Origin: a virus
Length of the DNA stretch: 64,000 bases
Virus record (IMG/VR): IMGVR_UViG_3300045988_059940
Coordinates: 1 to 64,000 of that record
Strand: one strand, 5' to 3'
A model generated the notes under the pieces. That model was given only the letters and a program-made list of their open reading frames with translations. It was not told where the DNA came from and did not search any database. Position 1 is the stretch's first letter. Each line of letters starts with the position of its first letter. A program made the translations under genes and the position numbers. This document shows positions 4,683 to 61,281 of the stretch, piece after piece.

Positions 4683-4696
4683 AATATAATCGTTTA

Positions 4697-21205: not shown

Positions 21206-21207
21206 AA

Positions 21208-23118: not shown

Positions 23119-23122
23119 AATA

Positions 23123-25156: not shown

Positions 25157-28100
25157 GATATTCTATATTTGGTAATAATGTTACTTATAGATATGCCATC
25201 TAAACTTCCTTTTAAAGTTAAAGTAATACTAGCAGTTTTACCTCTGAGTCTGTCACCATATTTTGCATTATTCACTCTTGGTACAGCCAATCTTACATCA
25301 CCCTCTCTTGTACTACATTTTATGTTATCTTGATTTACATCACCTGTATCGGAAGAATAATACTGTGATATTTGAACGCCTGTAACAATACCAGCATTTG
25401 TTATGATTCGCTATGTATCATAAACTTTAACTAATTCTGGATGCGAGTTTACAACATATGTCAATGATACATTTTTCACAATACCTTCCATATAACTATA
25501 TATTTTATTATCTTGGACAAAATATGGGCTTCCATAACACATAAACCACGATGTTGGGCGCATCAAATACTCGCTAGTAAATGCTTGTGTATATTCGTTA
25601 AATATTAATACTTTACTTTCCTTTGGGTAGATATTAAAATATATTTCATTATATTTTTTATCATAATGTACCGTTCCATCTATTGTACTAAGATGAGACC
25701 ACCAATATTTATTTAATAGATTTTGTACTGTTTTCTCTTTTGATATAGATGTAACACCACCTTGCAGTGAATACCTTAATATTTCATTTCTGATTGCGTC
25801 ATACCAATATAAACCATGTTCGGTAGATACAGAAGATTGTTGATATTTATACATTCCATTTTGTTCTGTAATATAATCATAACGTTCTAATACACCTCCT
25901 GTTCCTAATGCAATAGAAATGTTGTTAGTATCCTATAAAGCAACTCTATCATTTACAGCCAGTCTACCAACAGCATCTGTTTGGAAAAATATCAAATTAT
26001 CACTAAATATATCTAAGTGCGTTACTTCACCATATCGTGCATCTACATCAATGTAATTGGCAGCTTTAAATGTTAGCCAGCTATCTACTGCTTCCTTATT
26101 TGACTTTTGATTTGAATACCTAACTCTGGTATCTAGATTGTTTATTGTCGTACTCTTTGATAAATCACCAATAGCTAAGTGCAACATCGTTCTGTTTGGA
26201 GAACTATATGCCGTATTATATAAATACTATGGCGTACTCTGTTGTAGTATGTTATTTACATTTGAAGCCTCTCTTTGTATGTTTGTTATAGCAAACTTAT
26301 CGTATTTATTATAATCATAACTAAGTCTTGTGCCATAATCTCTTGCTATATTTATATTACTTTCAACAGGTATGCAGTATGTAATATTCGTAGTTAATGC
26401 CGTATCTCTTGGAGAATAATACTTATACAAAGATGTGTATTCAAATGGTACTATATAGCAGTCTCCGTTAAATACATATAAACCCTGATTTATTACTTTG
26501 CCGTCAGTTGTCCTAGTAACAACAGCAACATCGCCACTACTATAATATTTGGTATTCTCTATTGCTTCCCAAGAATAACCTCCATACGGAGTAACTTGTT
26601 TACGTATATTAGATATATATGTACCAGCTATACTTTCTGGTATAAATCCACTATAATACGGTTTTTCTGTAAACGCAGTTTCAGGGTCTGCTTTCATAAG
26701 TACTTCATTATACCTAAAATCTCTACGTGGATTTTGGTCGTAATATGGATTAGCTGAATCTTTTGACAACCCAATCTGTTGACTCACACATTTAAGTACA
26801 TACTCAGGATTTTGCGGAGTGTATTCTGAGTCACTTATTGCAGGATAATCTATTCTATTCGTACCGATTGTATCTGAGAATAAATATGATTTCCTATTTC
26901 CAACATTTGCGTAATCTGGTGTATTGTTTATAACCCATTTGTTATTTATTGAAAACAATAAACAACTACCAGCTGGGCCATATAGGTTTGTTCTGTAATC
27001 TAGCGTTGCTGGGTTATAGTCGTTTGGTACTCTGTATCCACCAGCACCTTGGCTGTAATGTCCGCCACATGCCCAGTTACAATAATTATAGTTTCCTATG
27101 TTAAAATACTTTGTTTTGAATTTAACATTATCATTTTCGTCAGCAAAGTCATTCCACATAAAATCGTGTGATAACTTTATTTCGTCAATATCACATTTAT
27201 TATATGAAAACTATATAATTGCTGGATAACCATTAAATTTATTATCTTTCCAATATGCATCACAGTCAAACTCATTACCATTATGTCCACGTAACAACAC
27301 AGCTGATGATTTATTGTAAAGTTTTATATATGCATATGAACGTCTTAATGCGTCTTGTAGATCATTAGCATTAAAATTCACAGCTCTATCTTGTGCTTGA
27401 CCAACCTCATATCTTACATTTATATGTTGAGGAGGCACATTACTTGGATGCCATCCTTGGTCATTCCACTATTTATTCATACGTATTGAATGGAATGACA
27501 ATAAGTAATTTGCATGATTTAATGATATGGACAATCTATCATTTACAGGCTTATCTAAGTTTGGAACGTTATAATTGGTAGACTCTTCTTTTTTATCTGT
27601 ATCCCAAATACCTATATGTTTTATCTGTAATGGTAGATTACAATTCGTCACAGCTGGATGTATTGCATAATGCGCTTTATCAAATTCTTCTCGTGACAAA
27701 TCACCAGCTGTATCTTCTCCGTGTTTATATCCATTCCATCCACACGCTCCAAATACATATAATTGTGGATTTATATTTAATTTATACTACTTTAATAAAT
27801 CGAATGTAGACTATTTCTAATATGAAATTTCTGGTGATATAAACTAATATACTGTTCCATTTCTATAATTAGAAGCTTCATCCGTGTCTACATTTTGGCC
27901 ATTGTTAGTTGTACTGTGCGCGTGATACCTGTCTCCATGCCAAACTCTACCAGTTGTCAATAGACCAGTTGGTGTTAGCATGTTTTCAGTTTCATGTATT
28001 CGTTTATCATACCTGTGTGATACATATTGTACAGGTCTAGATATAACACCTTGACTTAAAGTTGCTATGTCATTGATTGTCCTATCTGCACGTACTATTT

Positions 28101-30066
28101 CGTATGATACACATTCATCTGGTAAATTATGTATTGTAAACTCAATACCTAATGAATTTACAGACATCTAGTTATATACCCATGAGTCTTGAATTGCACT
28201 TCCATTAGGTTTTACTCCAATCATTGGAAGAATACTTTTACAATCAAAGTGCTAAAACCCACCAACATATATACTAGGAACGCGTATATCTGCAATCCAT
28301 CTTACAGAGCTTCTATTTCCGTTTTTATCATATAATACTATACCATATCTGTATAACTCATCTCTCCGTAATGATTTGAAAGACATTGCTATTTTTGGAT
28401 TACTATAATCAAAAACATAGTTCGCATGCTCGCCATCCTTATAGTCAGTCCAGTCTGTTTGTTTTATAGTTGAAAGCTCATAACTATAATTGATTGGTAT
28501 ATATATTTCTTTATTGGTTATATAATAAAATTTCAACCTTTGATTAATTAAAGGCTTCCTACTATTTCTGTTTATATTATGTTCACTACCATAAAATTTA
28601 TATTTATCATCCAATGTTGTAGGCAGACTGTCACCATCCAAAGGAACGGTTACAAATTTCCATGATATATTTATACCACTTCCTCCATAAAATCTATATT
28701 TCTTTTCCCCTTCTGTTTTTGTATATCTATCAAAGTTTCCACTGTCTTCATCCTGCTATTCACCTATGTTTCCTCCATATATTTTATATATGCTGTTAAT
28801 ATTATTACCTTTGTTTATACAATATTTATATGGTAGGTTTTTAGCATCATCTTGTAGTGTATTTTCGTGTATTACATGTACATCACCATTGTTGTCATAC
28901 ATTCTGCACAAACCTTTGTTGTTAAACTAATATGCTCTCGCATCATAGTTTTCAAAAGAATCAATTGAAAACTGTTTCTCTTTCAGGTTTGCAGCAAATA
29001 GTATATTATTTTTAGATTTTATCGACTTCGGTATAATATGTACACCAGATATGTTGTTATATAAACCTATATCTAATTTTTCTAGCGCGTTAAGTCCATC
29101 ATCAATTATAGTAAAAGTTGAACCATTTAGTCTACTGTCTATGATTAATTCTACATGTGGAGTTTCTGTGTTTGTAAAATATGATATTCTATATATCTTT
29201 ATACTATCAAAATAATCTGTATTATCAACATTTAGTAACATCTATATACCACAATTTGTATTTTTATTCTCGCCAGCACCTTCGTATATAGTATACTGGT
29301 TGTTTAATGGATGTTCATTATAGTCGTTTGTTTCTGTTGTGGTCTATAAATTTACAACATCTAACTTTTTAGTTGGTGGTGAAATTAAACTCTCTCTTCC
29401 ATATTTTTTATACAGCTAATAGCTATATTGTACAGTAGATGCTCTCAATGAACCAGGTATGAATTTATCAAATATTATCTTATTAAATGTAACAGACGGT
29501 ATTGTAAATAAACTATTAATGTTTGTACCATTGTATTGCATTACATTTATAGACATTATTGGATTTTCTCCATCTGCTATGTATAGTTTTTGTACATTTT
29601 CGTCTTCATACCTAGTTTCTATGCTTAACTTATGATTTGGTACATATCCTTCACATGGGCCTAAAACCAACCTATACACAATATCGCCATCTCTATCAAA
29701 TTCAATCCTAGCTATATAAAAATATGTATGACCAGCTTTAACATCAACGTTTGGCAATGGTTTGCCAAACTCGTGTTGTGAATTTTTTACATATACATCT
29801 TGCTAATTTTCATGATATTTTTTTGAAAATAAAACAACTATTGTATCTCTTATATTTACAGTTGCTAATATTTTGTCTCCAAATTCAGCTTGTTCAATCA
29901 GCTCTTCTATTGGATGCAATTCACCGCTATTATTCTTTGTTGACGTTATATACCTTAGATTTAAAGCATGCCTATATTGATTATTACTCAACATAGAGTC
30001 TGCTGTATCAGTATTCATTCCACCAGTGAATGAATTTATATGCTATGTCTTTTGATTAATATCCAT
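25147..30066 (-). CDS. Large tail/virion structural protein, ~1,639 aa
   Basis: The 11 track fragments 25411..30018 are co-framed. All gaps read: 17-18 TAG (cluster at 27787, 27811, 27817, 27844), no TAA/TGA. True stop TAA 25147-25149. The start is either ATG 30064-30066 (MDINQKT[TAG]HINSFTGGMNTD, overlapping the upstream gene by 11 nt) or ATG 30016-30018. Confidence 0.65.
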
Positions 30067-30940
30067 TGTAATAATCGTTATAGGTTATTTGTCTATTATT
30101 GGCAAAATCAAAGAATGTATCATCTGCATCCCAGTCTGGTATTAGTTTATTCCAGTCATTTTTAATATTTTGCATATCGTCAGCTGTCGGCATCATTGCC
30201 TCTGCATAAGCCTGATTTCTATAAAAATTCCACTGTTGTTGTAGATAGAAATATATTGTTTGATTAGCGCTCTTCAATTTACCACCAAGTTTTCCTTTTA
30301 AAAACTTAGCGAAATTTAATTTCATTGTGACATACCAGTAGATAGCTTCTTTATATGATTCTAAATCTGGTATCATTGGGTATCCTCTTTCGTCTTTTAG
30401 TATAGCTTTATATGCCAGCTTAGCATACCCATTCTTTTTATTAAATACAATCCAACCTGGTTTAATAAAATATTCAGGTTTTTCTTCTACAACTGTTGTA
30501 CCTTGTGTAGATAAGAATATCTTATTGTGATTTACAACCATTTGGTGTTGTGTGGTTGGAAATTTGTATAGACTATACTCTTCTTCTTTAACTTGTTGTG
30601 GTTGTACACCATATGTATTGTGGTTATTCCCACCTTTATTAAATATACCAGATTGTGTTGAAGCTGGTGTCCAAGGTCCATTTTGTGATAGTGAGTATGC
30701 TATACCATCTAAGTGAACAAGCCCTTCTGGAATAGGAATCTAGTAGTCTTGTATTTTAAATACTGGCACATCATTTTGGCCAGATTGTAACTTGATATAC
30801 TACATAGGTGCACCAATCTTTTCAATGGCTTCAAATATCCACTCCTTTATGTCGGATGTTCTCTGCTTCGATTCAGAAGCATCTAAATCAGCCATTATCT
30901 TTGCTATGACTGATTCACATTTTGTAAAATTGTATATCAT
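30056..30940 (-). CDS. Hypothetical structural protein, 294 aa
   Basis: ATG at 30938-30940 after an in-frame TAA at 30947-30949; TAA stop at 30056-30058. Two in-frame TAG (30800, 30740). Translated by hand across 30542-30940 with no TAA/TGA. Confidence 0.6.
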
Positions 30941-31325
30941 CTATATTTATATAATCTTTTCTATTAAATATCAATTGTGCAAGATGTCGTTTATTTGTCC
31001 TAGTTAATGATAATTGATATTTATATCTATTTGAAAATGTATATGGCTATTTAGACCAGTATAATCTATATTTATAGCCGTCTGAATGTTCGTTCAAATG
31101 ATATATTATCTTATCGTACTCTCTTGTATTTTTATAATCAATAGAGAGTGACTTCCTGCTTAATGTTTTTGGTTTGTATTTGACTATCTGTATAAATCCT
31201 AGTCCATTAGGCATTTTAAAGCCCTCTGAGCGATTTAAAACGTGTTCTAGTATAATCCTGCACATTGATTCTAATATGCGCTTATACGCAAAATACGACA
31301 CCTAAATAGGCATCGTATTGTACAT
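30915..31325 (-). CDS. Hypothetical small protein, ~136 aa
   Basis: The frame of track ORF 31047..31301 continues through TAG 31302 and TAG 31047 to TGA 30915-30917, overlapping the next gene by 26 nt. Start taken as ATG 31323-31325 (alternative ATG 31311-31313). Confidence 0.45.
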
Positions 31326-31347
31326 ATCTCTAAAAGTATAAGATAAC

Positions 31348-32052
31348 TTATTCCTCATCGTCTTGTGGTCCATGTGGTTTAACGCTAGCAAGAGTTGAGT
31401 TATTACTATCATCACTCGGACGTTGTAACATAAATGCTAATTCATTCTTCATAATAGCGTCTTTAATCAATGGAACAATCCAAGCTGGTATGTGTATGTC
31501 ATCCTCACTTGATTTATCATCCCAATCGTCTTCTGTTTCATATAAAGCTTTAACCCAAATATATTTTAACTTCTGACAATCTTGATTTCCACGAATATAT
31601 ATACGATTATCATCATACGATGCTGTTAATTCATTCCACGTGTATTTCCTAAAATTATGGTAATGTCTACGTACATGATTCATGTATTGAATATTTTCCC
31701 CATTTTGGTCATGAACTGCTAATATACTATCTTCATCATCATTGTATATATCTTTAAGTTTGGTAACAGTTCTTCGTACATAAGTCTTATTATCGTCATA
31801 TGATGGTACTGGCTCTAATTCCAATGGTCCAGTTTCACGAATATATATATCATCAACAGCATCTTCTATATCTACACCATCTCCTGCTTCACGCTTTTGT
31901 TGGTCAATACGTTGTTTAATGAAGTGTTGTTTCCAAGCTTTTATCCAAAGAATAACCTACTTTCTAGATAAGTCTTCACTCTCACTGATGTTGTTATTTC
32001 TAATAATCAGATATATATCATCTACAAACTACCTAAGTGTAATGTTTGCCAT
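31348..32052 (-). CDS. Hypothetical structural protein, 234 aa, acidic C-terminus
   Basis: ATG at 32050-32052, TAA at 31348-31350, in-frame TAG at 32029 and 31957. The gap 31825-32052 has no TAA/TGA in frame. Confidence 0.6.
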
Positions 32053-32053
32053 A

Positions 32054-32722
32054 TTATTTCTAATTTGTTTCTACTACTCTTACATCTGATGTTTTAAGTA
32101 GTTCGTTTGTATTTATAATATCATACTTATAAACAGTTACTTTTTTAAAGTCTAATGTAAATAACCGTTTAAAGAATGACTTTTTATTCTTATATTGTTT
32201 CTTTTTATAGATATACAAATATTGAGTATTATTTACTTTCAATCTTATATTTACTGTATCTTTACCTATTGTATATTCTACTGTTGTAAGGTCGTTATAG
32301 TTTATAGTATCTTTATATACACTATCTTTAATAATAGTTTTTACTATATCCTACCCCCTTACCCCCTTAGACTTATTAACGTATATTTCCTATGTCTAAG
32401 TTGCAGCAGTATTTATGTGACTAGGTTTTATCTTATTTTTTCTGGCTACACTATCTAGTTTGTGTAATAGCGAATCGTTCTAGTCCTTCAATCTTGTCAT
32501 ATCTAATTTTAGAACATTGTTAGCCTACTAGGAGCCATTAATTATCCCCTAGTAAGCCTCAATGTTGTTTTGAGCCATTTCTAGCCCTTCTGAGAGCTTT
32601 TTATTCTATTTGTATAGAAATATACTACTAGCGACAGATAATGCCACCAGCGCAATTAAAATGGCCTTAGAGATGATTTTACGATTTCGCTTTATCCAGC
32701 TTATTATCGTTAGAATCTCCAT
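32054..32722 (-). CDS. Spanin-like (Rz/i-spanin-type topology) protein, 222 aa
   Basis: ATG at 32720-32722 after TAA 32729-32731; stop TAA 32054-32056. Nine in-frame TAG, including the adjacent pair 32525-32530. N-terminal hydrophobic helix (KAILIALVALSVASSIFLY) followed by a charged helical region. It lies directly downstream of the holin-like and hydrolase-like genes. Function is inferred from topology and position only. Confidence 0.4.
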
Positions 32723-32945
32723 GTGCACTTAAAAGACTTTTTATTTCTCCAAATTTAGTATTAATATATGTAGTAATACCAAATACGCTGCCTGCATACA
32801 CCAGTGTCTACGACACATACCACAATACTTCGCTTGGTATCTTGTGTTCATTTAAGAAGAACGACAAGAACGTAAGCGCTATACCACTAAATAATGATAC
32901 AGACGCTGTGCTATACTGTACCACTTCTTTACTATGTCTTGTCAT
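32679..32945 (-). CDS. Holin-like small membrane protein, 88 aa
   Basis: Not in the ORF track because it is split by a TAG. ATG at 32943-32945, one nt after the upstream TGA; TAA at 32679-32681; one TAG (32808). Two hydrophobic segments (ASVSLFSGIALTFLSFFL; VLWYVS[TAG]TLVYAGSVFGITTYI) and a charged C-terminal tail. It overlaps the start of the spanin-like gene. Confidence 0.45.
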
Positions 32946-32946
32946 A

Positions 32947-33372
32947 TCATTCTATTGTTAATGTTACGTTACCTTCTTTACAAGCTTTTTCTATAATTGG
33001 ATATAGCTTGTCTACGGTAGCACGAGAGTTTAATACTTTACCAACTGCTTTATTTTCACCTACTAAAATACAACCGTGACTTTGCTCTGCTGAGTTGCCA
33101 GCATGTATCAATACACCAGAAAATGAATTTACGTTCAACAACCTAGGTGTAAATCTCTTAAATCTAGGTGAGAAGCTCCAAGTTACTTCATATGTACCGT
33201 ATGGTATAGCAGTTTCTCCATATATCTTTTGCTCTCCATTATCAAATACGCCATTCTTATTTAAGTCACGAACAGCATCTTCTAGTGTATCACAAAAGTA
33301 TACTCCATCTATATATAGCTTACCGATAGTATATTTATCGCGTAAAGCCGTTCTTTTAATCGTTATTTTCAT
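32947..33372 (-). CDS. DUF5675-like protein; candidate cell-wall hydrolase of the lysis cassette
   Basis: Intact 141-aa ORF. ATG 33370-33372 overlaps the upstream TGA (ATGA); TGA stop at 32947-32949; no TAG. The pattern YGTYEV..S..F....P.L..V..F.GVLIHAGN.....HGCILVG matches my recollection of DUF5675. The lytic role is inferred from the neighbouring genes only. Confidence 0.45.
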   Translation of the reverse strand: MKITIKRTALRDKYTIGKLYIDGVYFCDTLEDAVRDLNKNGVFDNGEQKIYGETAIPYGTYEVTWSFSPRFKRFTPRLLNVNSFSGVLIHAGNSAEQSHGCILVGENKAVGKVLNSRATVDKLYPIIEKACKEGNVTLTIE

Positions 33373-34502
33373 ACGCTTGCCTCTATAACTATATCTTTTG
33401 TAATATTAGGTATTGTAAACCAAACATATTGGTTGTTCATTCCACCCCAATGTAGAGTCAACCTTGATGTTATATCTACGCCTTCTTCATATACATTAAG
33501 ATTAAACCGTTCTTCTGAACCAGATTCTACTGGACGAACAGTAAATTCTCCCGATGTACCATATTTAACAGAAGAAGGGCCGTCCATCTCAAACTTATCT
33601 TTCGTATTCAGTATTATATTACGCCTACGTTTCAGTTGTACGGTGTTTGTGATGTCCACCAGGTTTACTTGTATTATAACACGAAATGTGGTATCCTAAC
33701 TTGTGTCATTTATTCTAATACACATATTTGTTTCATCGTATTCTACACCAAGCGTGTCTACTGATATTTTTATTCCATCTTGTCCGTTGTATAATTTTAC
33801 AGAACCATCTGAGTAATGTAGTTTGATTACAAACTTTTTACCAGATAAATCTTTATCTCCAAATTGAATTACATCTGTCATGTCAAACATGAAATCACCT
33901 AATTCTACTTGTTCTAATATTGGCTCTTCTTTATCTAAATCAATATTACCATCTACATAAGAAGGACCTTCTATAAGCTCTAATGCTTCATTCTTACGTA
34001 TAGTATATGTACGTAGATTATCTTCTCCCCATCCTCGCTGATACAATGTAACCATAATGATTAAATCAAATACACCAGTAAACCTTTGGTCTTCTGCTGG
34101 AAAATAACATTCAGCCATATTCTTTTCTGGAAGAAGTCTTGACGCACAGAGATAATCTGTATGTGTGTTTACAAATCTTTTAGAATATACACCAAAGCCA
34201 TTGTATGATGGGAACATGTGATAATCTGATACTTTGCCAAACATTGCGTTGCTTGAAAAGTAAGGATTATAGTATGTAAATATCTGATTGCCATAGATAT
34301 TCGGACTCATAGTATATTCTGTTGGATGATAAAACTGAGGAAAATTACAGTTATGAACTTTTTCTGTAAAGTCTTTATCTTCGTGTTTGATAAGATAACA
34401 CCTCATCTACTTAACAGACGTTACATCAAACTTATTTAATTCCCCAAGTTTAAATCTAAAACGTACATCTGTACCTTTTGTTATTATTCTATCTTCACTC
34501 AT
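33369..34502 (-). CDS. Hypothetical structural protein, 377 aa
   Basis: Track ORFs 33696..34406 and 33369..33659 are co-framed and joined through TAG 33696. The frame also continues upstream through TAG 34407 to ATG 34500-34502 (in-frame TAA at 34509-34511). Stop TGA 33369-33371. Confidence 0.55.
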
Positions 34503-34514
34503 AATATTTTATTT

Positions 34515-34556
34515 AAAACAAAAATAGCTGGAACGGGAATTAACCCATCCCAGCTA
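34515..34556 (-). terminator. Rho-independent terminator-like hairpin after the 344-aa structural gene
   Basis: Minus-strand RNA reads AGCUGGGA-UGGGUUAAUUCCCG-UUCCAGCU. This is an 8-bp stem including one G.U (arms at 34526-34533 and 34548-34555), followed by AUUUUUGUUUU. Confidence 0.6.
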
Positions 34557-34565
34557 TAAGGGAAA

Positions 34566-35600
34566 TTAAACAAGCTTATTTAATTCAGTCTCAACTAAAC
34601 CAAGTTGACCCTTCAAACCATAAATTTCAAGACACTGGCTCGTCTTACGAACGATGTCGTCAGCAGCACGATAGCTGTTTTCAAACTCTAACGTAAGAGA
34701 ATCGTACTTAGCGCCTTTCTGTACCTCCATGTCAGGACGTATAATAGGCCAAGTACCTTCACCACGGTTTAGGATACCCTCATAACCTTGTGCCCAATAT
34801 TCACGGTCACGTACGTGCTTCCAGTTACATTCACCGTCATGACCTTCTGTCTTCTTAATTACAACACCGTCGATGAAGTATTTGTTCTTTGAAGCAAAAC
34901 CAGATGCTGATGGGTCTGTAAAGTATACATTAGCAACAAAGCGAACCTTGTTTGCAGGACTGATTGACATTACGTTGTCGTCATCATCATAAGGAAGCGC
35001 TTCAATCTTCAATGTCGTTTTGTCAGTAGCTCCATCAACAATAGCAGAAGCAATTACACGTGCACGCTTGTATTGTTTGTTGATAAGATTAGCAAGCTTC
35101 TCTGGCAAGTTCTTTTCATTATCACCATCTTTGGTTACATACTCATAAGACTCAGTCCATTTGCGGAAACGATGAGGCATGTCCTTAAACGTCAAGCGTA
35201 CTATAATACGCTTACCAGCCATACCAAGCTTCGTCTTCATTTGCGTAGACATATTCTTGAATTTAATTTCAACAGTATCTTCTGTTTCGTCTTTATATTC
35301 CTTTTTATGTAAACCGCGAACGTCAGCTTTCTTAATCTCGTTAGACCACTTGATAACTGGTTCATAAGTCGTAGCACCAGTGCTATAATCAACCTTTGGT
35401 TGACGCTTATTTTGAATAAGACCAACCTTTACTACATTACCAGTAATTGTTGCACCGACAGTGCCGTCTTCACAGTTCATGAAGATAAACTTACCTGCGT
35501 CAGCAACAGCAGTGTTTGTAGCAGTATCAGCAGGTTTTGCAGCAGCAATAGCGCCAGTGGCGAGATTGCTAATCATTACATTATTTACGTATGTATTCAT
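34566..35600 (-). CDS. Abundant virion structural protein candidate, 344 aa
   Basis: Intact ATG..TAA ORF with no in-frame TAG. It is visibly GC-richer than its neighbours and is followed by a strong hairpin terminator. No family recognised. Confidence 0.7.
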   Translation of the reverse strand: MNTYVNNVMISNLATGAIAAAKPADTATNTAVADAGKFIFMNCEDGTVGATITGNVVKVGLIQNKRQPKVDYSTGATTYEPVIKWSNEIKKADVRGLHKKEYKDETEDTVEIKFKNMSTQMKTKLGMAGKRIIVRLTFKDMPHRFRKWTESYEYVTKDGDNEKNLPEKLANLINKQYKRARVIASAIVDGATDKTTLKIEALPYDDDDNVMSISPANKVRFVANVYFTDPSASGFASKNKYFIDGVVIKKTEGHDGECNWKHVRDREYWAQGYEGILNRGEGTWPIIRPDMEVQKGAKYDSLTLEFENSYRAADDIVRKTSQCLEIYGLKGQLGLVETELNKLV

Positions 35601-35671
35601 ATTTATTAATTTTTTCTACTCACCCTAATTTCAAAGGCTCAACCTAATGAGCTGGGCTTTCCACGTTAAAA

Positions 35672-36373
35672 TTATTCTTGTGTCATAACTTCCTACGATA
35701 GAGTCTTATACCGCTCATCTTTGGTATTTTCTAAATACATTTGAGCTGCCATTTTGATAATCTCATACATAGTATTGTTATCAAAATCATAATATTCGTC
35801 ATCCATTCTTAGGAAATTTATTTCTTCTGGCTTTTTTAAGTATCCCAGAATATACTTTTTAATTTTATATTTCTTATCTGTTAACAAATAACAACCATTG
35901 TCAGTTCTCACACGTAACGGTCTAGCATAGCCGTACGAATAATGAAAATCTGTTAAGCTGTTATCTACACGATACATAAAGCTGTCTGATGTACATTCAA
36001 ATACACTAACTTGTCTTGGGTTTGAATTTTGCATATCACATATATCCACATCTTCATTTAGTGCATATAGGAAATCACCATTATACCTAACAGAATATTC
36101 ATTATATTGTGGATTAGATGTATTAATTGATGGTGAACCTATTGTAAAGTCCACCTCTTGTGTACGACATAGCTTTATTAAATCGTTTCTACGCTTCTCA
36201 TTTTGTTCATATGATGTTTTGTGTGTAAAATCACCATTGAAGCGTATCTTAATAAACTTATTTACTGCCTAGTTTAACCAATACTATGAATCATCTGTTT
36301 TTGGTTTATTGGCGTAATCGTCAAGCTTATTTATTTCTAATTCAAATGCTTCAAGTATTTCTAGGTTCTTCAT
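35672..36373 (-). CDS. Hypothetical head-tail region protein, 233 aa
   Basis: ATG at 36371-36373; the frame passes TAG 36284, 36269 and 35693; true stop TAA 35672-35674. Translated by hand across 36155-36373. Confidence 0.55.
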
Positions 36374-37070
36374 CAGTATTAGTATTATTTTGTTTATTCT
36401 ATTCTTTTCTTCCAAGTCCAGATAATTTGAATTTGTAGTCTGCTATATACATCTCTACTGCTCCATTTACTATTTCATCAGAACATTGAGATGGTAATAT
36501 ACACGGTGTGTTATCTACGTCAAACCTTGGAGGTTTTGCGTAATATTCAACCGTAAATGAACCAATTTGACAGTATTGGTCATAGACTATATAACACTTA
36601 TTATCTTCACCAAAAGCGACAAGTGGATTTCTAATTATACGACCTTTGTCGCCCTACCCTGGTATATACTTATATAAATCTCTGAAAAATACATGTATAC
36701 ACCTAGCTGTATTAAATGGAAGAACGCGCTTTTTATAATCTCTACTCATTTGGCAATAACTATCTATATATAGGTAGAAATCATTTATTGAGTCTGTATT
36801 TGATATATAAGCGCCATTTTGATATAATTGTGGAGTTATAGACTTCCTAAGCGTTTGAATAACACTAGCAATCTTAACTCCTTGTGGGGTTTGAGAATCT
36901 ATTTTTTCTTGTAATACAAACATAGATTGTATATACTTATTCTAAAACTCATTTAAGAATGAATATATAGTATCTGTATCTAATTTGCTTGCTATTTGAA
37001 AATCAGGCCATATTTCAATTAGGCGGCGCTCAAACTCAATCCCCAAATTTCGTGTTTCTTGTTGTGTCAT
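36351..37070 (-). CDS. Hypothetical head-tail region protein, 239 aa
   Basis: ATG 37068-37070 overlaps the upstream TGA (ATGA at 37067-37070). TAG at 36942, 36654 and 36399. Stop TGA 36351-36353, overlapping the next gene by 23 nt. Confidence 0.55.
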
Positions 37071-37771
37071 GCCTCTAATTGTTTAGTTTGTAATATACTG
37101 GTTAATCGCGGAGATTCTGTATTTTCTGTTGCGAATACAACAGCTAGATTTATCAATTCATTTGCCATTGTGTCAGATAGTTCAAATTGAGTATTATCGA
37201 ACCTAAATGTATCAATATCATTTCCTACAATTCCACGAGTAAACTGATTTGGTTTCTTTATATATTGATAATATAATCTACTACCAGCTGGTACACCAAA
37301 GTCTTCTGCATACTTATAATCAATAAATACATGAAATTGTGTATCCATATAACCCACTGGTTCTTTTAACCAAGGCTTATTTATACTAGTCTACATTGAC
37401 TTTTGAGCAGCAGCATGTGAAACCAATTGTATGTTTTGCATTTCATCTATACCAAAATATGAACTTATATAATATAACATATCGTTTGGTAAATCTGCTA
37501 TAAGTTCGTTTTTAATTGGTAATACAGTTTTCCTACCTAATGTAGTAGTCCACTCTTTAATCAGCGGCCTTAAATCTTCTATAACCTTTATATCACCTTC
37601 AAATGCTACCTTCCTTGTGTTGTTTCCTGTAAATTTTTGAGCTATTAGAGCTAGGTACGCTTTGTCGAGTAATACAGCGGCTTCATATTCTGTTAACGAC
37701 GGATATGACGAAGTAACATCTGCCTTGTCATATTCTATCATAAACTTAGTATAAATATCACTATGTGTCAT
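37067..37771 (-). CDS. Hypothetical head-tail region protein, 234 aa
   Basis: Track ORFs 37391..37771 and 37067..37357 are co-framed and joined through the single TAG 37391. ATG at 37769-37771; TGA at 37067-37069. Confidence 0.6.
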
Positions 37772-37786
37772 ACGTCGTATATATTA

Positions 37787-38539
37787 TTATTTATTCTTAG
37801 TTTCGTTTATAATCGAAAGTCTAAGGTCTTGATTCTTCTTATTGTCAAGATAAGCAATTGCTTCTGGAAGTGAGTCTGCAATCATGTCAGTGCCATAGAA
37901 ATATGATGTACGTTCTTTACGAATAACACCTTTTGCCACAGCTTCTTCTAAGATAAACTCAGTTTCCTTTGATTTGTTATTAATCCATTTTTCGAAGAAC
38001 TTCTTTGGTTGTTTATCAATAAGCTGGAATAAAGAAGATTCTACAAGCTCATTTGACATTTGTTCAGAGTTAACGCCAAATAGGCGCAAGCACTGACGCA
38101 TTTGGTCTAATGACAACTTGTCAAATTCTTTAATAGCATCTCTACGTAACTTATTAGCTTTATTTAGTTCGATAGCCTCAGCTTCACGGTTAATGAGCAA
38201 ATAATCCTTGCCTGCATCCATCTTATCTAATGTAGTAGCTACACGTTTGTGACCAGATAAGAACTTTACAATCATTTCTTGACGAGGAACGCTTGTATCC
38301 AAAAGAAGTGTTCTTGCGCCAATTTTTACGCAGAACGTAGTCCAAAAGCTACTTGTCTTAGCAAGGTGACCTTCTGGATAACCTAGTGCTTTCTCATAAT
38401 ATTTTTCATCTTCGGGAGTAAGACCCGTATAAATTGACCCAGACCTTGTGAAGTATGGAGCAATATAATCATAACATGAGCGGTATTTAATTAAACCAGC
38501 CCACGGATTTTTCTTTTTAATTTTTAATTCAACTACCAT
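37787..38539 (-). CDS. Hypothetical virion protein, 250 aa
   Basis: Start set at ATG 38537-38539 (MVVELKIKKKNPW). The longer track ORF begins at a non-ATG codon inside the MCP terminator hairpin. TAA stop at 37787-37789. No TAG. Confidence 0.6.
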   Translation of the reverse strand: MVVELKIKKKNPWAGLIKYRSCYDYIAPYFTRSGSIYTGLTPEDEKYYEKALGYPEGHLAKTSSFWTTFCVKIGARTLLLDTSVPRQEMIVKFLSGHKRVATTLDKMDAGKDYLLINREAEAIELNKANKLRRDAIKEFDKLSLDQMRQCLRLFGVNSEQMSNELVESSLFQLIDKQPKKFFEKWINNKSKETEFILEEAVAKGVIRKERTSYFYGTDMIADSLPEAIAYLDNKKNQDLRLSIINETKNK

Positions 38540-38580
38540 AATATATTTAATCAGTGTTGTACCTATATAATGTAAAGAAG

Positions 38581-38606
38581 TTCGGGGAAGAATTATCAAC
38601 CCCGAA
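38581..38606 (-). terminator. Hairpin after the major capsid gene (terminator-like)
   Basis: Minus-strand RNA reads UUCGGGG-(12 nt)-CCCCGAA (7-bp stem), followed by CUUCUUUACAUU. It sits 43 nt after the MCP TAA. Confidence 0.45.
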
Positions 38607-38648
38607 GTTCATATTACATTAATACGTTTATATAAGTATTATTGTTTA

Positions 38649-40172
38649 TTACGCACCTACTGCTGCAATACCGTTGTTTTCCATCTCTGCGTCAGCTGCG
38701 TCACAATACAAAATACCGCAAGCCAGAGGGTTACGTACCATAATACCACTTTCACCTAAGAAGTGAACTTGGTAACCGTCGCGGCTATTAGAACGCATCG
38801 TGTTAATTGAATTGCCATAACCACTAGGTATAACTGAACCACCAGTACACCAGGTTACAAACTCACGTCCTTTACGACAAACCTTAACGACGTTAGATTG
38901 TCCATCACGCATACCGAAATCTACAAACAAGAACGTATAAGACATAAGTGGTTTGCCAGTCAGAGGATGAAGTTGACGGAACATTTCTGCATTGTCAAAC
39001 ATAGCACAGCGTTTCAATGTTAACTCAATACCGTTGGTCATCTTATAGGTAGTAAACTGACCACCAAGCGTAAGTTCTTGACCAGAACCAGTAATAAACT
39101 TAGTATCAATGAGGTTGAAGCTAGCAACTTTTTCCTTCAATACACGGTCGAACTCACGAAGTCCCATCTCTCCTGTAATACCAACAAACTTACGTTCGTT
39201 TGTACCAAGCATATTGTAGCTTAGGTCGAACAGATAATCTTCCAGCAATTCTGACGTAAGAGTAGTGTAATAACGTACGTTAGCAGGAGAAATCTGAGCA
39301 AACAAACCAGCACTGATATTTACAGGACGTCCGTTTGTACCTTTTAACGTATAAGTACCGTCTGCATTACGGTTAGGTTTAGCAAACAGAAGCTTCATTT
39401 CTTCCCTCTTCTTCCATTCACGAAGGGCCTTCCAGTGTTGATAATCAGCCCACAAATAACTCTTCTTACCAGTTTCTGGGTCAGTTAGAGCGATTGCTAA
39501 TACGGTAGAATATGCATCACCAGTAATATCATAAGACAGACGTGAAATAGAAAGCGAGTTACGCATCTTAAATGGCGTCTGATAGTTGATGATGTCAGCC
39601 TCATCTGAGTACTCTTCGTAAGCACTACCAATACGGCTTACTTGACGACCAGGTAAAAGGTATTCGTTTGGAATATATGCACCAGCATAGTTATCTACAA
39701 CATAGCATTCATAAACCCAAGCGTTACCATCCTGATAGGGAACACCGTTTGCACGTACTTGGAAATTATAGTTATCAAATGCCAATAGTGCACCAGGACC
39801 GAAGAAACGCTCTTCTATACCGAGATAAATAGGAGCACCATTCATACCAGCGAACCTATTTGCGTTATTATCGTCGCCAACGCGCTTACCACCAGCCTTA
39901 GCCCAAAGGATATTAACAGCATGGTCTGCATCAATTTGTACTGACCACTCATATTCACTGTTATCAATCGTCATAGTCTTACCAAGACCGCCAGTAAGCA
40001 TGTCAATTACGGTAGATACGCCGTCGTCCTTTGTACCAAATACCAGTGAAAGAAGACCAGCAATCTCATGAGGTTTAGTTAATGCGGCGTTAGAAATCAT
40101 ATTTTCGTCTACAAGACCTGCAAAGCGCTTACCGCGATACAGTTGTAGACCATTAAGTAATGTGTTATTCAT
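38649..40172 (-). CDS. Major capsid protein (crAss-like, HK97-fold class by context), 507 aa
   Basis: Intact ATG (40170-40172) to TAA (38649-38651) ORF with no TAG. It is GC-richer than its surroundings, sits directly after an acidic scaffold-like gene and near portal/TerL, and its size and position match crAss-like MCPs. No search was run. Confidence 0.75.
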   Translation of the reverse strand: MNNTLLNGLQLYRGKRFAGLVDENMISNAALTKPHEIAGLLSLVFGTKDDGVSTVIDMLTGGLGKTMTIDNSEYEWSVQIDADHAVNILWAKAGGKRVGDDNNANRFAGMNGAPIYLGIEERFFGPGALLAFDNYNFQVRANGVPYQDGNAWVYECYVVDNYAGAYIPNEYLLPGRQVSRIGSAYEEYSDEADIINYQTPFKMRNSLSISRLSYDITGDAYSTVLAIALTDPETGKKSYLWADYQHWKALREWKKREEMKLLFAKPNRNADGTYTLKGTNGRPVNISAGLFAQISPANVRYYTTLTSELLEDYLFDLSYNMLGTNERKFVGITGEMGLREFDRVLKEKVASFNLIDTKFITGSGQELTLGGQFTTYKMTNGIELTLKRCAMFDNAEMFRQLHPLTGKPLMSYTFLFVDFGMRDGQSNVVKVCRKGREFVTWCTGGSVIPSGYGNSINTMRSNSRDGYQVHFLGESGIMVRNPLACGILYCDAADAEMENNGIAAVGA

Positions 40173-40194
40173 ATATTGTTATAAATTATATTAA

Positions 40195-41313
40195 TTAGTA
40201 CATACCTGTCAACAGGTCTGTAACTGATTTTTCTTTACTTGTTGCACTCTGCGAAGTGTGATTTTTAGCAGAGTTTCTTAAAAGTTTTCTAAGTTTCTCA
40301 GCAGCAGACGTTTCGCCAGTCTTTTTTGCTGTTGAAACTACGGCATCACCTTTCATAGTAAAGTAAGCAGATTCGATTAGGTTCTTTGCTAGATTAGAAT
40401 CAAAGTCCTTCTGGTATTGTGTATAACCATCTTTATCTGTCTTGAAAATATAATCATACAAAGCTTTGCGGTCTGCTTTTGGGATAGCAATGCCACGAAT
40501 TGAATCTAAACTATTAATACTATCTGTTACAGATTTCATAAATTGCTGTTGTTGAGCCTCTTGTTGTCTAGCCAACTCTGCCTGTTGCTTAGCATTTGCT
40601 TCTGCTTCATTCTTACGAATTTCTTTAAGCATCTCCAAAGCGTCTTCCGACTCTTCGTATAATACGCCAGCATCTTCATATCTAGCAATCTTGTTATTAA
40701 TCTGTTCATCTGTGTAGCCGTTGTGACGAAGCAAATCACCAATTACAGTACGTTGATTGGATTCTGATTCCAAATCAATGTTATCAAGAGTAAGTGCTTG
40801 TTTTTGTACTTGATAGAAATCTTCAAACTTACCACCATTCTTTACAAACTCATCTAACTTCTATATCCTATCATCTGCATACTGTGGAACTGAGTTCTAC
40901 TGTACAACATCTGTAAGGTACTTAGTTAGACCATCTACTGTAAGTGGTCTTTCTTCATCACTAATGTCTGCTATATTCCAACCTAATGATTCAGCAACAG
41001 CATCGAACAAAACACCAACTTGTTGTGCCTCAGCAACATCTTCATCAGTTGGTTCATTTTCATCGACGTCTTGTGTATCTTCTTTATCATCAGATTGTTC
41101 TTTGTCAGCAGGCTCTGTGTCTGCTGCTTGATTTATATCATTATCTTCCTCATCAGGTTCATCGCCTTCTGGTTCTTTAATTTCTGTTACTTCGTCCTCA
41201 ACCACAATATCTTCATCCAAGTTAGTAGCACTAGTATCTCCTTCTGAATTACCGTACATGCTTAACAGGTCATCAAATGTGGATGGATTAGTTTCTTGTT
41301 TACGTTTTGCCAT
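40195..41313 (-). CDS. Scaffolding-like protein, 372 aa
   Basis: Track ORFs 40897..41313 and 40195..40773 are co-framed and joined through TAG 40897 and 40861; the gap was scanned. ATG at 41311-41313; TAA at 40195-40197. Very acidic N-terminal third, a Q/A/E-rich coiled segment (AELARQQEAQQQQ), and a position immediately 5' of the MCP. Confidence 0.6.
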
Positions 41314-41362
41314 AATTATTAATTAATAATTAAATTATTTGTTTCGCTGTTTAATCAGCGTA

Positions 41363-41998: not shown

Positions 41999-42000
41999 AA

Positions 42001-44484: not shown

Positions 44485-44488
44485 ATCG

Positions 44489-46785: not shown

Positions 46786-46787
46786 AA

Positions 46788-47306: not shown

Positions 47307-47317
47307 ATTTAATTATA

Positions 47318-56346: not shown

Positions 56347-56357
56347 TGTAAGAAAGA

Positions 56358-60705: not shown

Positions 60706-60731
60706 GTATTATTTTATATTAATTTATATAG

Positions 60732-61234: not shown

Positions 61235-61281
61235 AGGGGGTAAGCCGTTGTTTAAGTCTACGGCTTAAAGACTTATATGTT

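What the first reader, a model, noticed from the sequence alone, without database searches (positions are those of the whole stretch)
32054..33372. Lysis-like cassette in which the last gene is the most TAG-dense in the window, including a TAG-TAG doublet
The arrangement is a hydrolase-like gene (no TAG), then a holin-like 88-aa gene with two TM segments (1 TAG, inside TM2), then a spanin-like gene with an N-terminal TM. The spanin-like gene has 9 TAG in 222 codons, about 3.4 times the block average. These include adjacent TAG-TAG at 32525-32530 and TAG-x-TAG at 32390-32398. The genes are joined by a 1-nt spacer and a 44-nt overlap. Tandem reassigned stops would make completion of lysis steeply dependent on suppressor tRNA level, acting as a built-in timer. 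The holin-like gene is invisible to standard ORF calling.
Basis: partly seen in the sequence, partly recalled or inferred. Interest (0 to 1): 0.65.

Follow-up and report, generated by a model that had tools for sequence, protein, structure and literature searches.

The report
Recoded stop codons form mRNA hairpin
In a gut crAss-like phage that reads the stop codon TAG as glutamine, the TAG-rich last lysis gene and its TAG-TAG pair are real and conserved, but that pair and one more TAG are held in place because they form the two arms of a conserved RNA hairpin inside the gene, a possible switch linking lysis-gene expression to the altered genetic code.

Summary
On the minus strand lie a DUF5675 peptidase-like gene (0 TAG), an 88-aa holin-like gene (1 TAG) and a 222-aa Rz/LysB-like gene with 9 TAG (4.05% against 1.17% for the block). 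This last gene holds the only TAG-TAG in about 18,000 recoded codons.

The window is a TAG-to-Gln recoded crAss-like phage (Suoliviridae, Oafivirinae). TAG bias of the spanin family, and the lysis-timing idea, were already published by Borges et al. (2021/2022).

What appears to be new:
- In 77 distinct orthologues, TAG58, TAG65 and TAG66 are kept as TAG in 95%, 83% and 97%. Other conserved Gln columns of the same gene are 21-45% TAG.
- These three codons are the paired arms of a roughly 54-nt mRNA hairpin (window 32513-32566).
- 90.9% of cells pair, compensatory changes recur at synonymous sites, and the window hairpin folds at -25.7 kcal/mol (z -6.6).
- It is the only conserved structure found across eight neighbouring gene families, and there is one copy per genome.
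- With the peptide fixed, the full stem needs UAG at all three codons.

Other recoded subfamilies carry different strong hairpins in the same gene, usually followed by UAG. Non-recoded relatives mostly lack them. The hairpin's function is inferred, not shown.

The parts
32947..33372 (-). Endolysin candidate: 141-aa DUF5675 protein with a YkuD/C82-like His...Ser-His-Gly-Cys motif. It has 0 TAG.
   Evidence: Pfam PF18925, E = 6.3e-31, with a weak YkuD match. phrog_1501. A 2026 preprint groups DUF5675 with C82 peptidases by structure. Relatives are annotated 'putative transpeptidase'.
32679..32945 (-). Holin-like 88-aa membrane protein. It starts 1 nt after the endolysin stop. It has one TAG (codon 46), which is not conserved in orthologues.
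   Evidence: phrog_8278, E = 1.5e-11. Hydropathy gives a TM at residues 13-32 and a weaker second segment. Codon 46 is TAG in 2 of 29 orthologues. In some relatives the same slot holds an unrelated 175-180-aa 'VOG0641 holin'.
32054..32722 (-). Rz/LysB-like (i-spanin-like) 222-aa gene. It has an N-terminal TM (residues 15-39), a long helix and a conserved C-terminal domain. It carries 9 TAG and overlaps the holin-like gene by 44 nt.
   Evidence: Weak Rz-like spanin PHROG hits are found in 23 of 29 family members. TIGR03495 LysB scores E = 0.12. AF2 predicts a helix at residues 16-97 at low confidence. Orthologues have a median of 7 TAG.
32513..32566 (-). Conserved mRNA hairpin inside the spanin-like ORF (codons 53-70). 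Parts: outer stem 32566-32560 with 32519-32513; main 5' arm 32558-32546; loop 32545-32535; main 3' arm 32534-32522.
   Evidence: Window MFE is -25.7 kcal/mol, z -6.6; the antisense strand gives -16.8. 90.9% of cells pair against 30-54% for slid partners, and the covariation score beats 500 of 500 shuffles. Compensatory switches recur on the tree. It is the only conserved structure in 367 alignment windows. There is one copy per genome.
32549..32551 (-). TAG codon 58, in the 5' arm of the hairpin.
   Evidence: TAG in 73 of 77 orthologues, with 2 changes on the tree. It pairs with C of codon 64 plus UA of codon 65.
32525..32530 (-). TAG-TAG doublet (codons 65-66), in the 3' arm of the hairpin.
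   Evidence: TAG in 64 of 77 and 75 of 77 orthologues. The doublet pairs with GCC-UAU of codons 56-57. Variants TGG and CAA at codon 65 mostly keep pairing.
32390..32398 (-). TAG-x-TAG (codons 109 and 111). These are ordinary, exchangeable Gln codons outside any conserved structure.
   Evidence: TAG in 16 of 77 and 34 of 77 orthologues; the rest are CAA or CAG. No consensus structure is found there.
60731..60819 (-). Suppressor tRNA with anticodon CUA. It lies just upstream of the first TAG-containing gene and next to TAG-free genes.
   Evidence: ARAGORN. Cloverleaf with a long variable arm. Best Rfam match is tRNA-Sec at 42.9 bits, below the gathering score. Window TAGs align with CAA, CAG and TAG in relatives, which supports Gln.
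1..60029 (-). TAG-recoded late gene block, all on the minus strand. The lysis cassette sits in its middle. Genes at 60145-62920 have no TAG.

Best explanation
This is the lysis module of a crAss-like phage (Crassvirales, Suoliviridae, Oafivirinae-like) whose late genes use TAG as a glutamine codon, read by a phage suppressor tRNA.

The third gene belongs to the Rz/LysB-like family, which is the most TAG-biased family in such phages. That bias is a known trait.

Shown here:
- Three of its TAGs (codon 58 and the 65-66 doublet) are frozen because they are the paired arms of a conserved mRNA hairpin of about 54 nt inside the ORF.
- UAG58 pairs with C-UA of codons 64-65. UAG65-UAG66 pairs with GCC-UAU of codons 56-57.
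- With the peptide A-Y-Q / S-Q-Q-A fixed, the full 11-bp core can form only if all three Gln codons are UAG.

Inferred:
- The hairpin is a cis-regulatory element that limits or gates expression of this gene, and perhaps of the roughly 30 kb of structural genes downstream. It could act as an attenuator, a partial terminator or a processing site.
- A translating ribosome must melt the hairpin and must decode UAG in both arms. The balance between a folded, inactive mRNA and a translated one should therefore depend on suppressor-tRNA supply.
- The remaining, positionally unconserved TAGs add a multiplicative dependence on suppression efficiency.
For: TAG conservation is position-specific.
- TAG frequency is 95%, 83% and 97% at codons 58, 65 and 66. 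It is 21%, 44% and 44% at the other conserved Gln columns of the same 77 sequences.
- Fitch changes are 2, 7 and 2 against 9, 20 and 19.
- Fourfold sites between genomes are near saturation, at about 47% identity.

Non-TAG synonymous sites around these codons are also frozen: GCC56 97%, TAT57 97%, AAT69 99%, TTA71 97%.

The structure test supports a hairpin.
- 90.9% of cells pair against 30-54% when partners are slid.
- 122 double-change cells are seen against 31 expected.
- The covariation score is 0.271 against 0.166, with 0 of 500 shuffles reaching it.
- Pair 21-57 joins two synonymous third positions. It is AU 50, GC 24, GU 3, never unpaired, with 8-10 independent changes per side.

Thermodynamics and strand.
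- The window hairpin is -25.7 kcal/mol, z -6.6. The family median is -29.9 kcal/mol.
- The many G.U pairs and the weaker antisense fold point to sense-strand RNA.

Uniqueness.
- Consensus energy is -15.8 against a next-best of -3.2 over 367 windows in 8 gene families.
- The covariance model finds one hit per genome in 433 kb.
- At least 118 IMG/VR contigs carry the core with an invariant 17-nt spacing, always in this gene.

Enumeration shows that 11 of 11 stem pairs need UAG at all three codons.

Link to recoding.
- 45 spanin-like genes from other recoded subfamilies have different strong hairpins (-16.6 to -25.1 kcal/mol, z -5 to -9).
- In most of them UAG follows within about 10 nt.
- 24 non-recoded relatives have a median of -12.5 kcal/mol.

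TAG/Gln stays at 0.46 against 0.30 in neighbouring genes even without the hairpin codons. Borges et al. reported the spanin family as the most TAG-biased, p = 9e-6.
Against: - The function is not shown. There are no expression, 3'-end or cleavage data.
- The U-run after the Oafivirinae hairpin is weak, and the simple terminator scan does not flag it.
- UAG in the arms may be only a by-product of needing pairing while coding Y-Q and Q-Q.
- One orthologue (L069) lost all three TAGs yet kept 9 of the 11 core pairs, one of them by a compensatory change. This shows that structure, not TAG itself, is what is selected.
- The contrast between hairpins in recoded and non-recoded relatives rests on few independent lineages. 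It has two exceptions (L169, L176) and is not phylogenetically corrected.
- One hairpin type (L098) has no adjacent TAG.
- The protein's spanin identity rests on weak similarity. No o-spanin partner was found.
Confidence: 0.5

Rival explanations
1. The hairpin has nothing to do with recoding. It is an ordinary internal element of the late operon: a partial intrinsic terminator, an RNase III or other processing site, or an mRNA stabiliser. It sets the ratio between upstream capsid and lysis genes and downstream genes. UAG codons sit in its arms only because UAG is the one Gln codon that lets Y-Q and Q-Q segments pair.
For: - Enumeration shows that pairing alone explains the choice of UAG.
- L069 keeps most pairs without any TAG.
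- The hairpins in Loutivirinae- and Uncouvirinae-like relatives look like textbook terminators. They have a long stem and a U-tract just after the holin stop.
- A clear intergenic terminator exists 2 kb upstream at 34557-34524, so hairpin terminators are used in this operon.
Against: - Strong hairpins in this gene track recoded lineages: 45 of 45 recoded against 2 of 24 non-recoded.
- They are built from, or directly followed by, UAG in at least four unrelated stem sequences.
- The Oafivirinae hairpin lacks a proper adjacent U-tract.
- It sits in the single most TAG-biased gene family.
Confidence: 0.3
2. TAG number and adjacency are selected for their own sake. Nine TAGs, including a doublet, make the full-length protein yield a steep function of suppressor tRNA level and so time the last step of lysis. 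On this view the hairpin is incidental.
For: - The gene is the most TAG-dense in the window.
- The family is TAG-rich everywhere, with a median of 7 TAG.
- The bias persists without the hairpin codons: 0.46 against 0.30.
- TAG-TAG is otherwise depleted, with 1 observed against 4.5 expected.
- The published hypothesis by Borges et al. points the same way.
Against: - It cannot explain frozen and covarying non-TAG synonymous sites.
- It cannot explain why other conserved Gln columns of the same gene exchange freely with CAA and CAG.
- Codon 65 tolerates W, E and R in ways that mostly preserve pairing.
- In model phages the holin, not the spanin, sets lysis time (established knowledge). Here the holin has one unconserved TAG.
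Confidence: 0.1
3. The element acts at the DNA level. It is two copies of a near-palindromic site, CCTA-N-TAGG, 24 bp apart, bound by a dimeric protein or cut by a nuclease.
For: Each arm is itself nearly palindromic (CCTATTAGG, CCTAGTAGG). CCTANTAGG occurs only twice in the window against 0.45 expected.
Against: - Pairing extends beyond the palindromes into an outer stem and a variable inner stem that covaries between arms.
- Frequent G.U pairs would be A.C mismatches on the other strand, and the antisense fold is about 9 kcal/mol weaker.
- The window's own variants break the DNA palindrome but keep RNA pairing.
Confidence: 0.05
4. The hairpin is a special decoding signal. It would be either a SECIS-like element directing a particular reading of these UAGs by the tRNA-Sec-like suppressor, or a T4 gene 60-like bypass element.
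For: UAG sits inside a coding-region hairpin, as in fdhF SECIS and T4 gene 60. The suppressor tRNA's best Rfam match is tRNA-Sec.
Against: - About 230 other TAGs in the window have no such hairpin, and the model finds one hit per genome.
- The segment between the arms is always 6 in-frame codons with no TAA or TGA in 77 of 77 orthologues.
- There are no matched take-off and landing codons.
- TAG aligns with Gln codons throughout.
Confidence: 0.03

Closest known systems
Preferential stop-codon recoding of lysis genes in TAG-recoded crAss-like phages (Borges et al. 2021 bioRxiv 10.1101/2021.08.26.457843; Nat Microbiol 2022)
   Same: - The same kind of phage, with a suppressor tRNA encoded in a standard-code region.
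- A late block that uses TAG for Gln.
- The spanin family as the most TAG-biased (p = 9e-6).
- A second biased family two genes downstream. Here this may be 30056-30940, whose codon 47 is TAG in 56 of 72 orthologues.
- The same lysis-timing hypothesis.
   Different: That work counts TAG per gene. It does not mention tandem TAGs, position-specific conservation or RNA structure. The words 'hairpin', 'stem-loop', 'tandem' and 'terminator' are absent from its text. Here one third of the excess is traced to a hairpin.
Ribosome-dependent transcription attenuators (trp/his leaders, pyrBI leader of E. coli)
   Same: An RNA hairpin lies within or just after a translated stretch, and its formation competes with the ribosome. 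The position of the ribosome is set by supply of a particular tRNA at control codons. This is the proposed analogy, from established knowledge.
   Different: The control codons would be reassigned stop codons read by a phage tRNA. The hairpin lies inside a full-length gene, not a leader peptide. No alternative antiterminator pairing was found. The U-tract is weak in this subfamily. Nothing has been shown experimentally.
Bacterial SECIS element (fdhF) with tRNA-Sec
   Same: A reassigned stop codon lies at the base of a coding-region hairpin. The suppressor tRNA has a long variable arm and scores best against Rfam tRNA-Sec.
   Different: SECIS is needed at every UGA-Sec codon. Here only 3 of roughly 240 TAGs lie in the hairpin. 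TAG behaves as Gln. No SelB-like factor was looked for or seen.
T4 gene 60 translational bypass element
   Same: A UAG stop lies in a stem-loop inside an ORF of a phage gene.
   Different: The inter-arm segment is coding: 6 in-frame codons in every orthologue. There is no matching take-off and landing pair, and no untranslated gap.
Lambda Rz/Rz1 and P2 LysB/LysC two-component spanins
   Same: The gene lies directly after an endolysin and a holin. The protein has an N-terminal TM followed by a long helical periplasmic segment. There are weak, recurrent profile matches to Rz-like PHROGs and to LysB.
   Different: It has an extra conserved C-terminal domain of about 100 aa and no Cys. No embedded, overlapping or adjacent lipoprotein (o-spanin) ORF was found. 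Similarity is below significance for any single model.
RNase III processing hairpins of phage late mRNAs (T7 R-sites)
   Same: A helix of about 23 bp interrupted by an internal loop, in a long polycistronic late transcript.
   Different: T7 sites are intergenic. This one is inside an ORF and would inactivate the gene if cut. Cleavage has not been tested.

Membership tests
TAG-to-Gln (code 15) recoded crAss-like phage late block | Long ORFs appear only if TAG is read through, and TAG aligns with Gln codons of relatives. | tested here: met
   26 contiguous ORFs with 214 in-frame TAG. Window TAGs align with CAA (55), TAG (49), CAG (21) and then E. Peters et al. report proteomic proof of code 15 in crAss-like phages (abstract).
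TAG-to-Gln (code 15) recoded crAss-like phage late block | A phage-encoded suppressor tRNA(CUA) lies in a standard-code region upstream of the recoded genes. | tested here: met
   tRNA with anticodon CUA at 60731-60819. Genes at 60145-62920 have 0 TAG.
Spanin family preferentially recoded (Borges et al.) | The TAG share of Gln codons is higher in the spanin family than in other families of the same genomes. | tested here: met
   0.57 against 0.01-0.38 in 7 neighbouring families. It is 0.46 without the hairpin codons. Paired Wilcoxon p = 7e-8.
Pfam DUF5675 / YkuD-like (MEROPS C82-like) peptidoglycan peptidase | Match above the Pfam gathering score. | tested here: met
   107 bits against a cut-off of 26.7, E = 6.3e-31.
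Pfam DUF5675 / YkuD-like (MEROPS C82-like) peptidoglycan peptidase | Cell-wall hydrolase activity. | not testable with these tools
   Only a weak YkuD match (E = 0.08), a visible H...SHGC motif and a structural grouping with C82 peptidases in a preprint.
Class II holin | A small protein with two transmembrane segments and a charged C-terminus, located next to the endolysin. | tested here: inconclusive
   The protein is 88 aa, adjacent to the endolysin candidate, with a charged tail. One clear TM lies at residues 13-32, and the second segment falls below the hydropathy threshold. It matches only an unannotated PHROG.
Two-component spanin, i-spanin subunit (Rz/LysB-like) | An N-terminal transmembrane anchor followed by a helical or coiled periplasmic domain. 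| tested here: met
   KD 2.23 at residues 15-39. AF2 predicts a helix at residues 16-97, though at low confidence with mean pLDDT 45.8.
Two-component spanin, i-spanin subunit (Rz/LysB-like) | Significant sequence membership in an Rz or LysB family. | tested here: inconclusive
   phrog_739 best E = 8e-4, matched by 23 of 29 members. phrog_214 is matched by 19 of 29. TIGR03495 scores E = 0.12, far below its cut-off.
Two-component spanin, i-spanin subunit (Rz/LysB-like) | A partner o-spanin lipoprotein gene that is embedded, overlapping or adjacent. | tested here: not met
   No conserved open alternative frame in 7 genomes. No lipobox-type ORF in 29000-36500.
Unimolecular spanin (T1 gp11 type) | An N-terminal lipoprotein signal and a C-terminal transmembrane domain. 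| tested here: not met
   No Cys in the protein, and the only TM is N-terminal.
Conserved structured RNA element | Base pairing kept across homologues through compensatory changes, more than in controls. | tested here: met
   9 pairs show double changes. Pairs 21-57, 30-48 and 35-43 switch 11-15 times on the tree and are never unpaired.
Intrinsic (Rho-independent) terminator | A GC-containing stem with a short loop, immediately followed by a U-tract. | tested here: not met
   The scan does not flag it. The window loop is 11 nt. The tail AAUAAUGUUUUAA is interrupted. The hairpins of other subfamilies do meet this feature.
Rfam families | A match to any described RNA family. | tested here: not met
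   Only one tRNA reaches the gathering score in the whole window.
SECIS-like decoding element | A hairpin accompanies every reassigned stop codon that is decoded. | tested here: not met
   One model hit per genome, against about 240 TAG codons in the window.

The most novel reading that the evidence does not exclude
The hairpin and its UAG codons together form a sensor of the phage's own genetic-code switch. It would be an attenuator-like riboregulator whose control codons are reassigned stop codons. When suppressor tRNA is scarce, ribosomes terminate or lag, the hairpin folds, and the message for the spanin-like gene (and possibly the downstream virion genes) is terminated, cut or silenced. 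When UAG is decoded efficiently, ribosomes keep the hairpin open. Different hairpins at different sites of the same gene in other recoded subfamilies would mean that this device arose more than once.
Probability: 0.3. Interest if true: 0.8.

Novelty: new variant of a known kind. Interest (0 to 1): 0.6.

Why it matters
Why phages reassign stop codons is an open question. The leading idea, regulation of late and lysis genes, rests on counts of TAG per gene.

This locus gives that idea a concrete, mutable cis-element. The hairpin is short, strongly conserved, and has recoded stop codons as its arms, in the most TAG-biased gene family.

It matters in two ways:
- As a caution. Part of the reported 'TAG preference' of spanin genes is RNA-structure constraint, not selection on codon count.
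- As an opportunity. Stem-breaking and stem-restoring synonymous mutants, tested with and without the suppressor tRNA, would directly show whether code switching controls lysis-gene expression.

It is also an example of three overlapping layers of information (protein, RNA structure, reassigned codon) in about 54 nt.

Tried and rejected
- **ORF 1043-1423** (7 TAG in 126 codons) as a denser gene. Rejected, because it is nested out of frame in an ORF of at least 1560 aa.
- **An embedded Rz1-like gene as the cause of the frozen TAGs.** Rejected. The other five frames are closed by TAA or TGA in all 7 genomes, and no lipobox ORF lies nearby.
- **Lack of divergence as the cause.** Rejected. Fourfold sites are about 47% identical, and typical synonymous columns show 10-23 changes.
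- **TAG decoded as Ser, Leu or Tyr**, as the long variable arm of the tRNA might suggest. Rejected by the alignment spectrum, which mirrors that of CAA.
- **A +4 or -1 nucleotide context bias of TAG.** None was found.
- **A general 5' bias of TAG in genes.** Weak: 0.30 against 0.23, p = 0.10 without this gene.
- **Hairpins at the other TAG-preferring columns** (30056-30940 codon 47; 31348-32052 codon 32). None were found.
- **Structure prediction of the spanin-like protein.** Mean pLDDT was 45.8 and too poor for a fold search.
- **PDB sequence search with the DUF5675 protein.** Nothing significant.
- **NCBIfam.** No hits for genes 1 and 2.
- **The terminator-like site at 32651-32627**, in the TM-coding part of the window gene. 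It is not conserved in the 77 orthologues.
- **Megablast of the locus against GenBank phages.** Only one weak hit, so the relatives were reached by tblastn.
Full report
**What the window is**

All long ORFs lie on the minus strand, and they appear only when TAG is read through. From 60029 down to 4697 there are 26 contiguous ORFs with 214 in-frame TAG in 18,219 codons. A further ORF runs off the window start.

A tRNA with anticodon CUA lies at 60731-60819, just upstream of the first TAG-containing gene. The genes beyond it have no TAG.

The gene next to the cassette matches the Pfam family CrAss_Ring_2. The closest GenBank relatives are Crassvirales, Suoliviridae, Oafivirinae: cr273_1, cr131_1, cr130_1, cr124_1 and Bohxovirus.

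Window TAG codons align with CAA, TAG and CAG, and then Glu, in six relatives. This is the same spectrum as for CAA codons, so TAG is glutamine. That agrees with published proteomics for crAss-like phages (abstract).

**Check of the observation**

Details are in the observation check.
- The third gene has 9 TAG in 222 codons, 3.45 times the block mean.
- 9 of its 12 Gln-type codons are TAG.
- The nominal p-values (0.0011 and 0.00027) survive correction for 26 genes only modestly.
- An apparently denser ORF (1043-1423) is a nested artefact.
- The TAG-TAG is the only one among 74 Gln-Gln dipeptides, where 4.5 would be expected.
- In six relatives, doublets outside this gene are also rarer than expected.
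- Standard-code ORF calling does fragment genes 2 and 3.

**What the three genes are**

- Gene 1 is a DUF5675 protein (E = 6e-31). It has a weak YkuD match and an H...SHGC motif. A recent preprint groups DUF5675 with C82 peptidases by structure.
- Gene 2 matches only an unannotated PHROG. It has one clear and one weak hydrophobic segment. In several relatives its slot is filled by an unrelated protein of about 180 aa annotated as a holin, which supports the functional assignment by position.
- Gene 3 has an N-terminal anchor and a long predicted helix. 23 of 29 family members give weak matches to an Rz-like spanin PHROG. Depositors called distant homologues 'lysis regulatory protein-like (LysB, FtsL)'. 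No o-spanin partner was found, and the structure model was too poor to use.

So 'lysis cassette' is well supported. 'Spanin' is a reasonable but unproven label.

**What is already known**

Borges et al. reported that in TAG-recoded crAss-like phages only four gene families prefer TAG over CAA and CAG.
- The spanin family is the strongest (p = 9e-6).
- A family two genes downstream is also biased.
- They proposed that this regulates lysis timing.

That text does not mention tandem TAGs, positional conservation or RNA structure. Two further literature searches found nothing on such a hairpin.

**Comparative result**

I collected 6 GenBank and 80 IMG/VR loci. They gave 77 distinct orthologues with 47-76% amino-acid identity.
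- All are TAG-rich, with a median of 7 TAG and a range of 2-12.
- The gene is TAG-denser than seven neighbouring families.
- Codon 58 is TAG in 73 of 77, codon 65 in 64 of 77, and codon 66 in 75 of 77.
- The other conserved Gln columns of the same gene are TAG in 16, 34 and 34 of 77.
- On a neighbour-joining tree the three columns change 2, 7 and 2 times, against 9, 20 and 19.
- Fourfold sites are close to saturation.
- Codon 65 tolerates W, E and R, so it is the codon, not the residue, that is kept.

**The turn**

Neighbouring synonymous positions that are not TAG are frozen too: GCC56, TAT57, AAC53, AAT69, GTT70 and TTA71. RNAalifold on the 77 sequences predicts a single hairpin, and it is made of exactly these codons.
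- The core pairs A-GCC-UAU-UAG-G (last base of codon 55 through the first base of codon 59) with CC-UAG-UAG-GCU (codons 64-67).
- An outer stem pairs AACAUU with AAUGUU.
- A variable inner stem is formed by codons 59-64.

Counting pairs on the alignment:
- 90.9% of cells are paired, against 30-54% with slid partners.
- 122 double-change cells are seen, against 31 in shuffles.
- The covariation score exceeds all 500 shuffles.

Individual pairs:
- Pair 21-57 joins the third bases of Glu55 and Ala67. It is AU in 50, GC in 24 and GU in 3 sequences. It is never unpaired, with 8-10 independent changes on each side.
- Pairs 30-48 and 35-43 behave likewise.

The window's two deviations from the consensus (GCU, UAC) both preserve pairing. 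Its hairpin folds at -25.7 kcal/mol (z -6.6), against -16.8 for the antisense strand. Together with the many G.U pairs, this points to the mRNA.

Uniqueness:
- The element is the only conserved structure in 367 alignment windows over eight gene families.
- It occurs once per genome.
- It matches no Rfam family.
- It is present, with an invariant 17-nt spacing and 65 different inner sequences, in at least 118 IMG/VR contigs, always in this gene.

Enumerating all synonymous codings of the conserved peptide shows that the 11-bp core is complete only if all three Gln are UAG. Each CAA or CAG costs one internal pair.

Hence the TAG-TAG doublet is conserved because of RNA structure. One orthologue that lost all three TAGs made a compensating change, U-A to C-G.

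**What remains of the codon-count idea**

Without codons 58, 65 and 66 the family still uses TAG for 46% of Gln, against 30% in neighbours. The window gene has 6 of 9 (p = 0.008). About a third of the excess is the hairpin. The rest is a diffuse preference consistent with Borges et al.

Highly expressed genes such as the major capsid protein gene avoid TAG altogether. TAG load may therefore also simply track the required expression level.

**Link to recoding**

In other Suoliviridae subfamilies the homologous site has no hairpin.
- All 45 distinct spanin-like genes from recoded Loutivirinae- or Uncouvirinae-like genomes carry another strong hairpin.
- These range from -16.6 to -25.1 kcal/mol, with z from -5 to -9, and have at least four unrelated stem sequences.
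- They lie in the TM-coding 5' end, just after the holin stop, and have a U-tract.
- In most, one or two UAG codons follow within about 10 nt.
- 24 genes from non-recoded relatives have a median best energy of -12.5 kcal/mol, with two exceptions.

This association is suggestive. It rests on few independent lineages and is not corrected for phylogeny.

**Mechanism**

Shown: the hairpin, its conservation, and the fact that it fixes three UAG codons.

Inferred: it acts in cis on expression. A ribosome must open about 23 bp and decode UAG in both arms. When UAG decoding is slow, or ends in termination by RF1, the region is left free to fold.

A folded hairpin could stop RNA polymerase, attract RNase III, or simply block following ribosomes. 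In each case, output of the spanin-like gene would depend on suppressor supply more steeply than codon number alone would give. The same might apply to the roughly 30 kb of downstream virion genes.

The main rival is that the hairpin is an ordinary operon-internal terminator or processing site, and that UAG is merely the only Gln codon compatible with pairing. The present data cannot separate the two. I put them at about 0.5 and 0.3.

Three other readings are disfavoured by specific results listed under rival explanations:
- a pure tandem-codon timer;
- a DNA-level palindrome;
- a SECIS- or bypass-like decoding signal.

**Verdict**

- The cassette annotation is supported.
- The TAG bias and the timer idea are already known.
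- The doublet is explained by a previously undescribed conserved mRNA hairpin built from reassigned stop codons. This is a new variant within the known theme of recoding-linked control of lysis genes, and it is directly testable.

Noticed in passing
window 60731-60819 (minus): The CUA suppressor tRNA is 89 nt long, with a long variable arm and possibly an 8-bp acceptor stem. Its best Rfam match is tRNA-Sec (42.9 bits, below the gathering score of 47), and the general tRNA model did not report it. Yet TAG behaves as Gln in alignments, so how a type-II-like tRNA would be charged with Gln is unexplained.
   Followed up: partly
L094, L095, L098, L132, L164 and about 40 further loci (e.g. L094:1432-1494): Spanin-like genes of other recoded Suoliviridae subfamilies carry a strong hairpin with a U-tract in the TM-coding 5' end, just after the holin stop. 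There are at least four unrelated stem sequences. In most, UAG (often UAG-N6-UAG) follows 1-9 nt after the U-tract. Non-recoded relatives mostly lack such hairpins.
   Followed up: partly
window 34524-34557 (minus): A textbook intrinsic terminator (14-bp stem, 6-nt loop, TTTTGTTTTA) lies in the 63-nt gap after the TAG-free gene 34566-35600. This suggests stepwise attenuation along the late operon.
   Followed up: no
window 38649-40172, 37787-38539, 34566-35600, 32947-33372: Four genes inside the recoded block have no TAG at all, including the 507-codon major capsid protein homologue. In relatives, conserved Gln codons of the capsid gene are nearly always CAG. TAG seems to be avoided where expression must be high.
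   Followed up: partly
window 30056-30940 codon 47; 31348-32052 codon 32: Two further Gln columns prefer TAG across orthologues (56 of 72 and 47 of 75), with no conserved RNA structure around them. The first gene may be the 'tail tube' family, two genes downstream of the spanin, that Borges et al. found TAG-biased.
   Followed up: partly
window 32349-32372 (minus; codons 118-124): A G-rich direct repeat, TAAGGGGG-TAAGGGGG-TAGG. Across 77 orthologues the synonymous sites of AGT-AAG-GGG-GTA are frozen (GGG 96% in an AT-rich genome). GCA107 and GTT115 are invariant. There is no consensus structure and no explanation.
   Followed up: no
L005, L007, L008 compared with window, L004, L006, L009: The holin slot between the endolysin and the spanin-like gene is filled either by a small protein of 81-101 aa or by an unrelated 175-180-aa 'VOG0641' holin in different genera. 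cr273_1 (L004) lacks the DUF5675 gene at this position.
   Followed up: no
window 4697-21205 (minus): A single ORF of 5,502 codons with 66 TAG, followed by another ORF of at least 1,560 codons that runs off the window start. Both are giant virion or RNA-polymerase-type genes typical of crAss-like phages. They lie downstream of the hairpin in the same orientation.
   Followed up: no
window 23077-23085: This is the only other exact CCTANTAGG in the window, near the 5' end of gene 21208-23118. The covariance model does not match there.
   Followed up: partly
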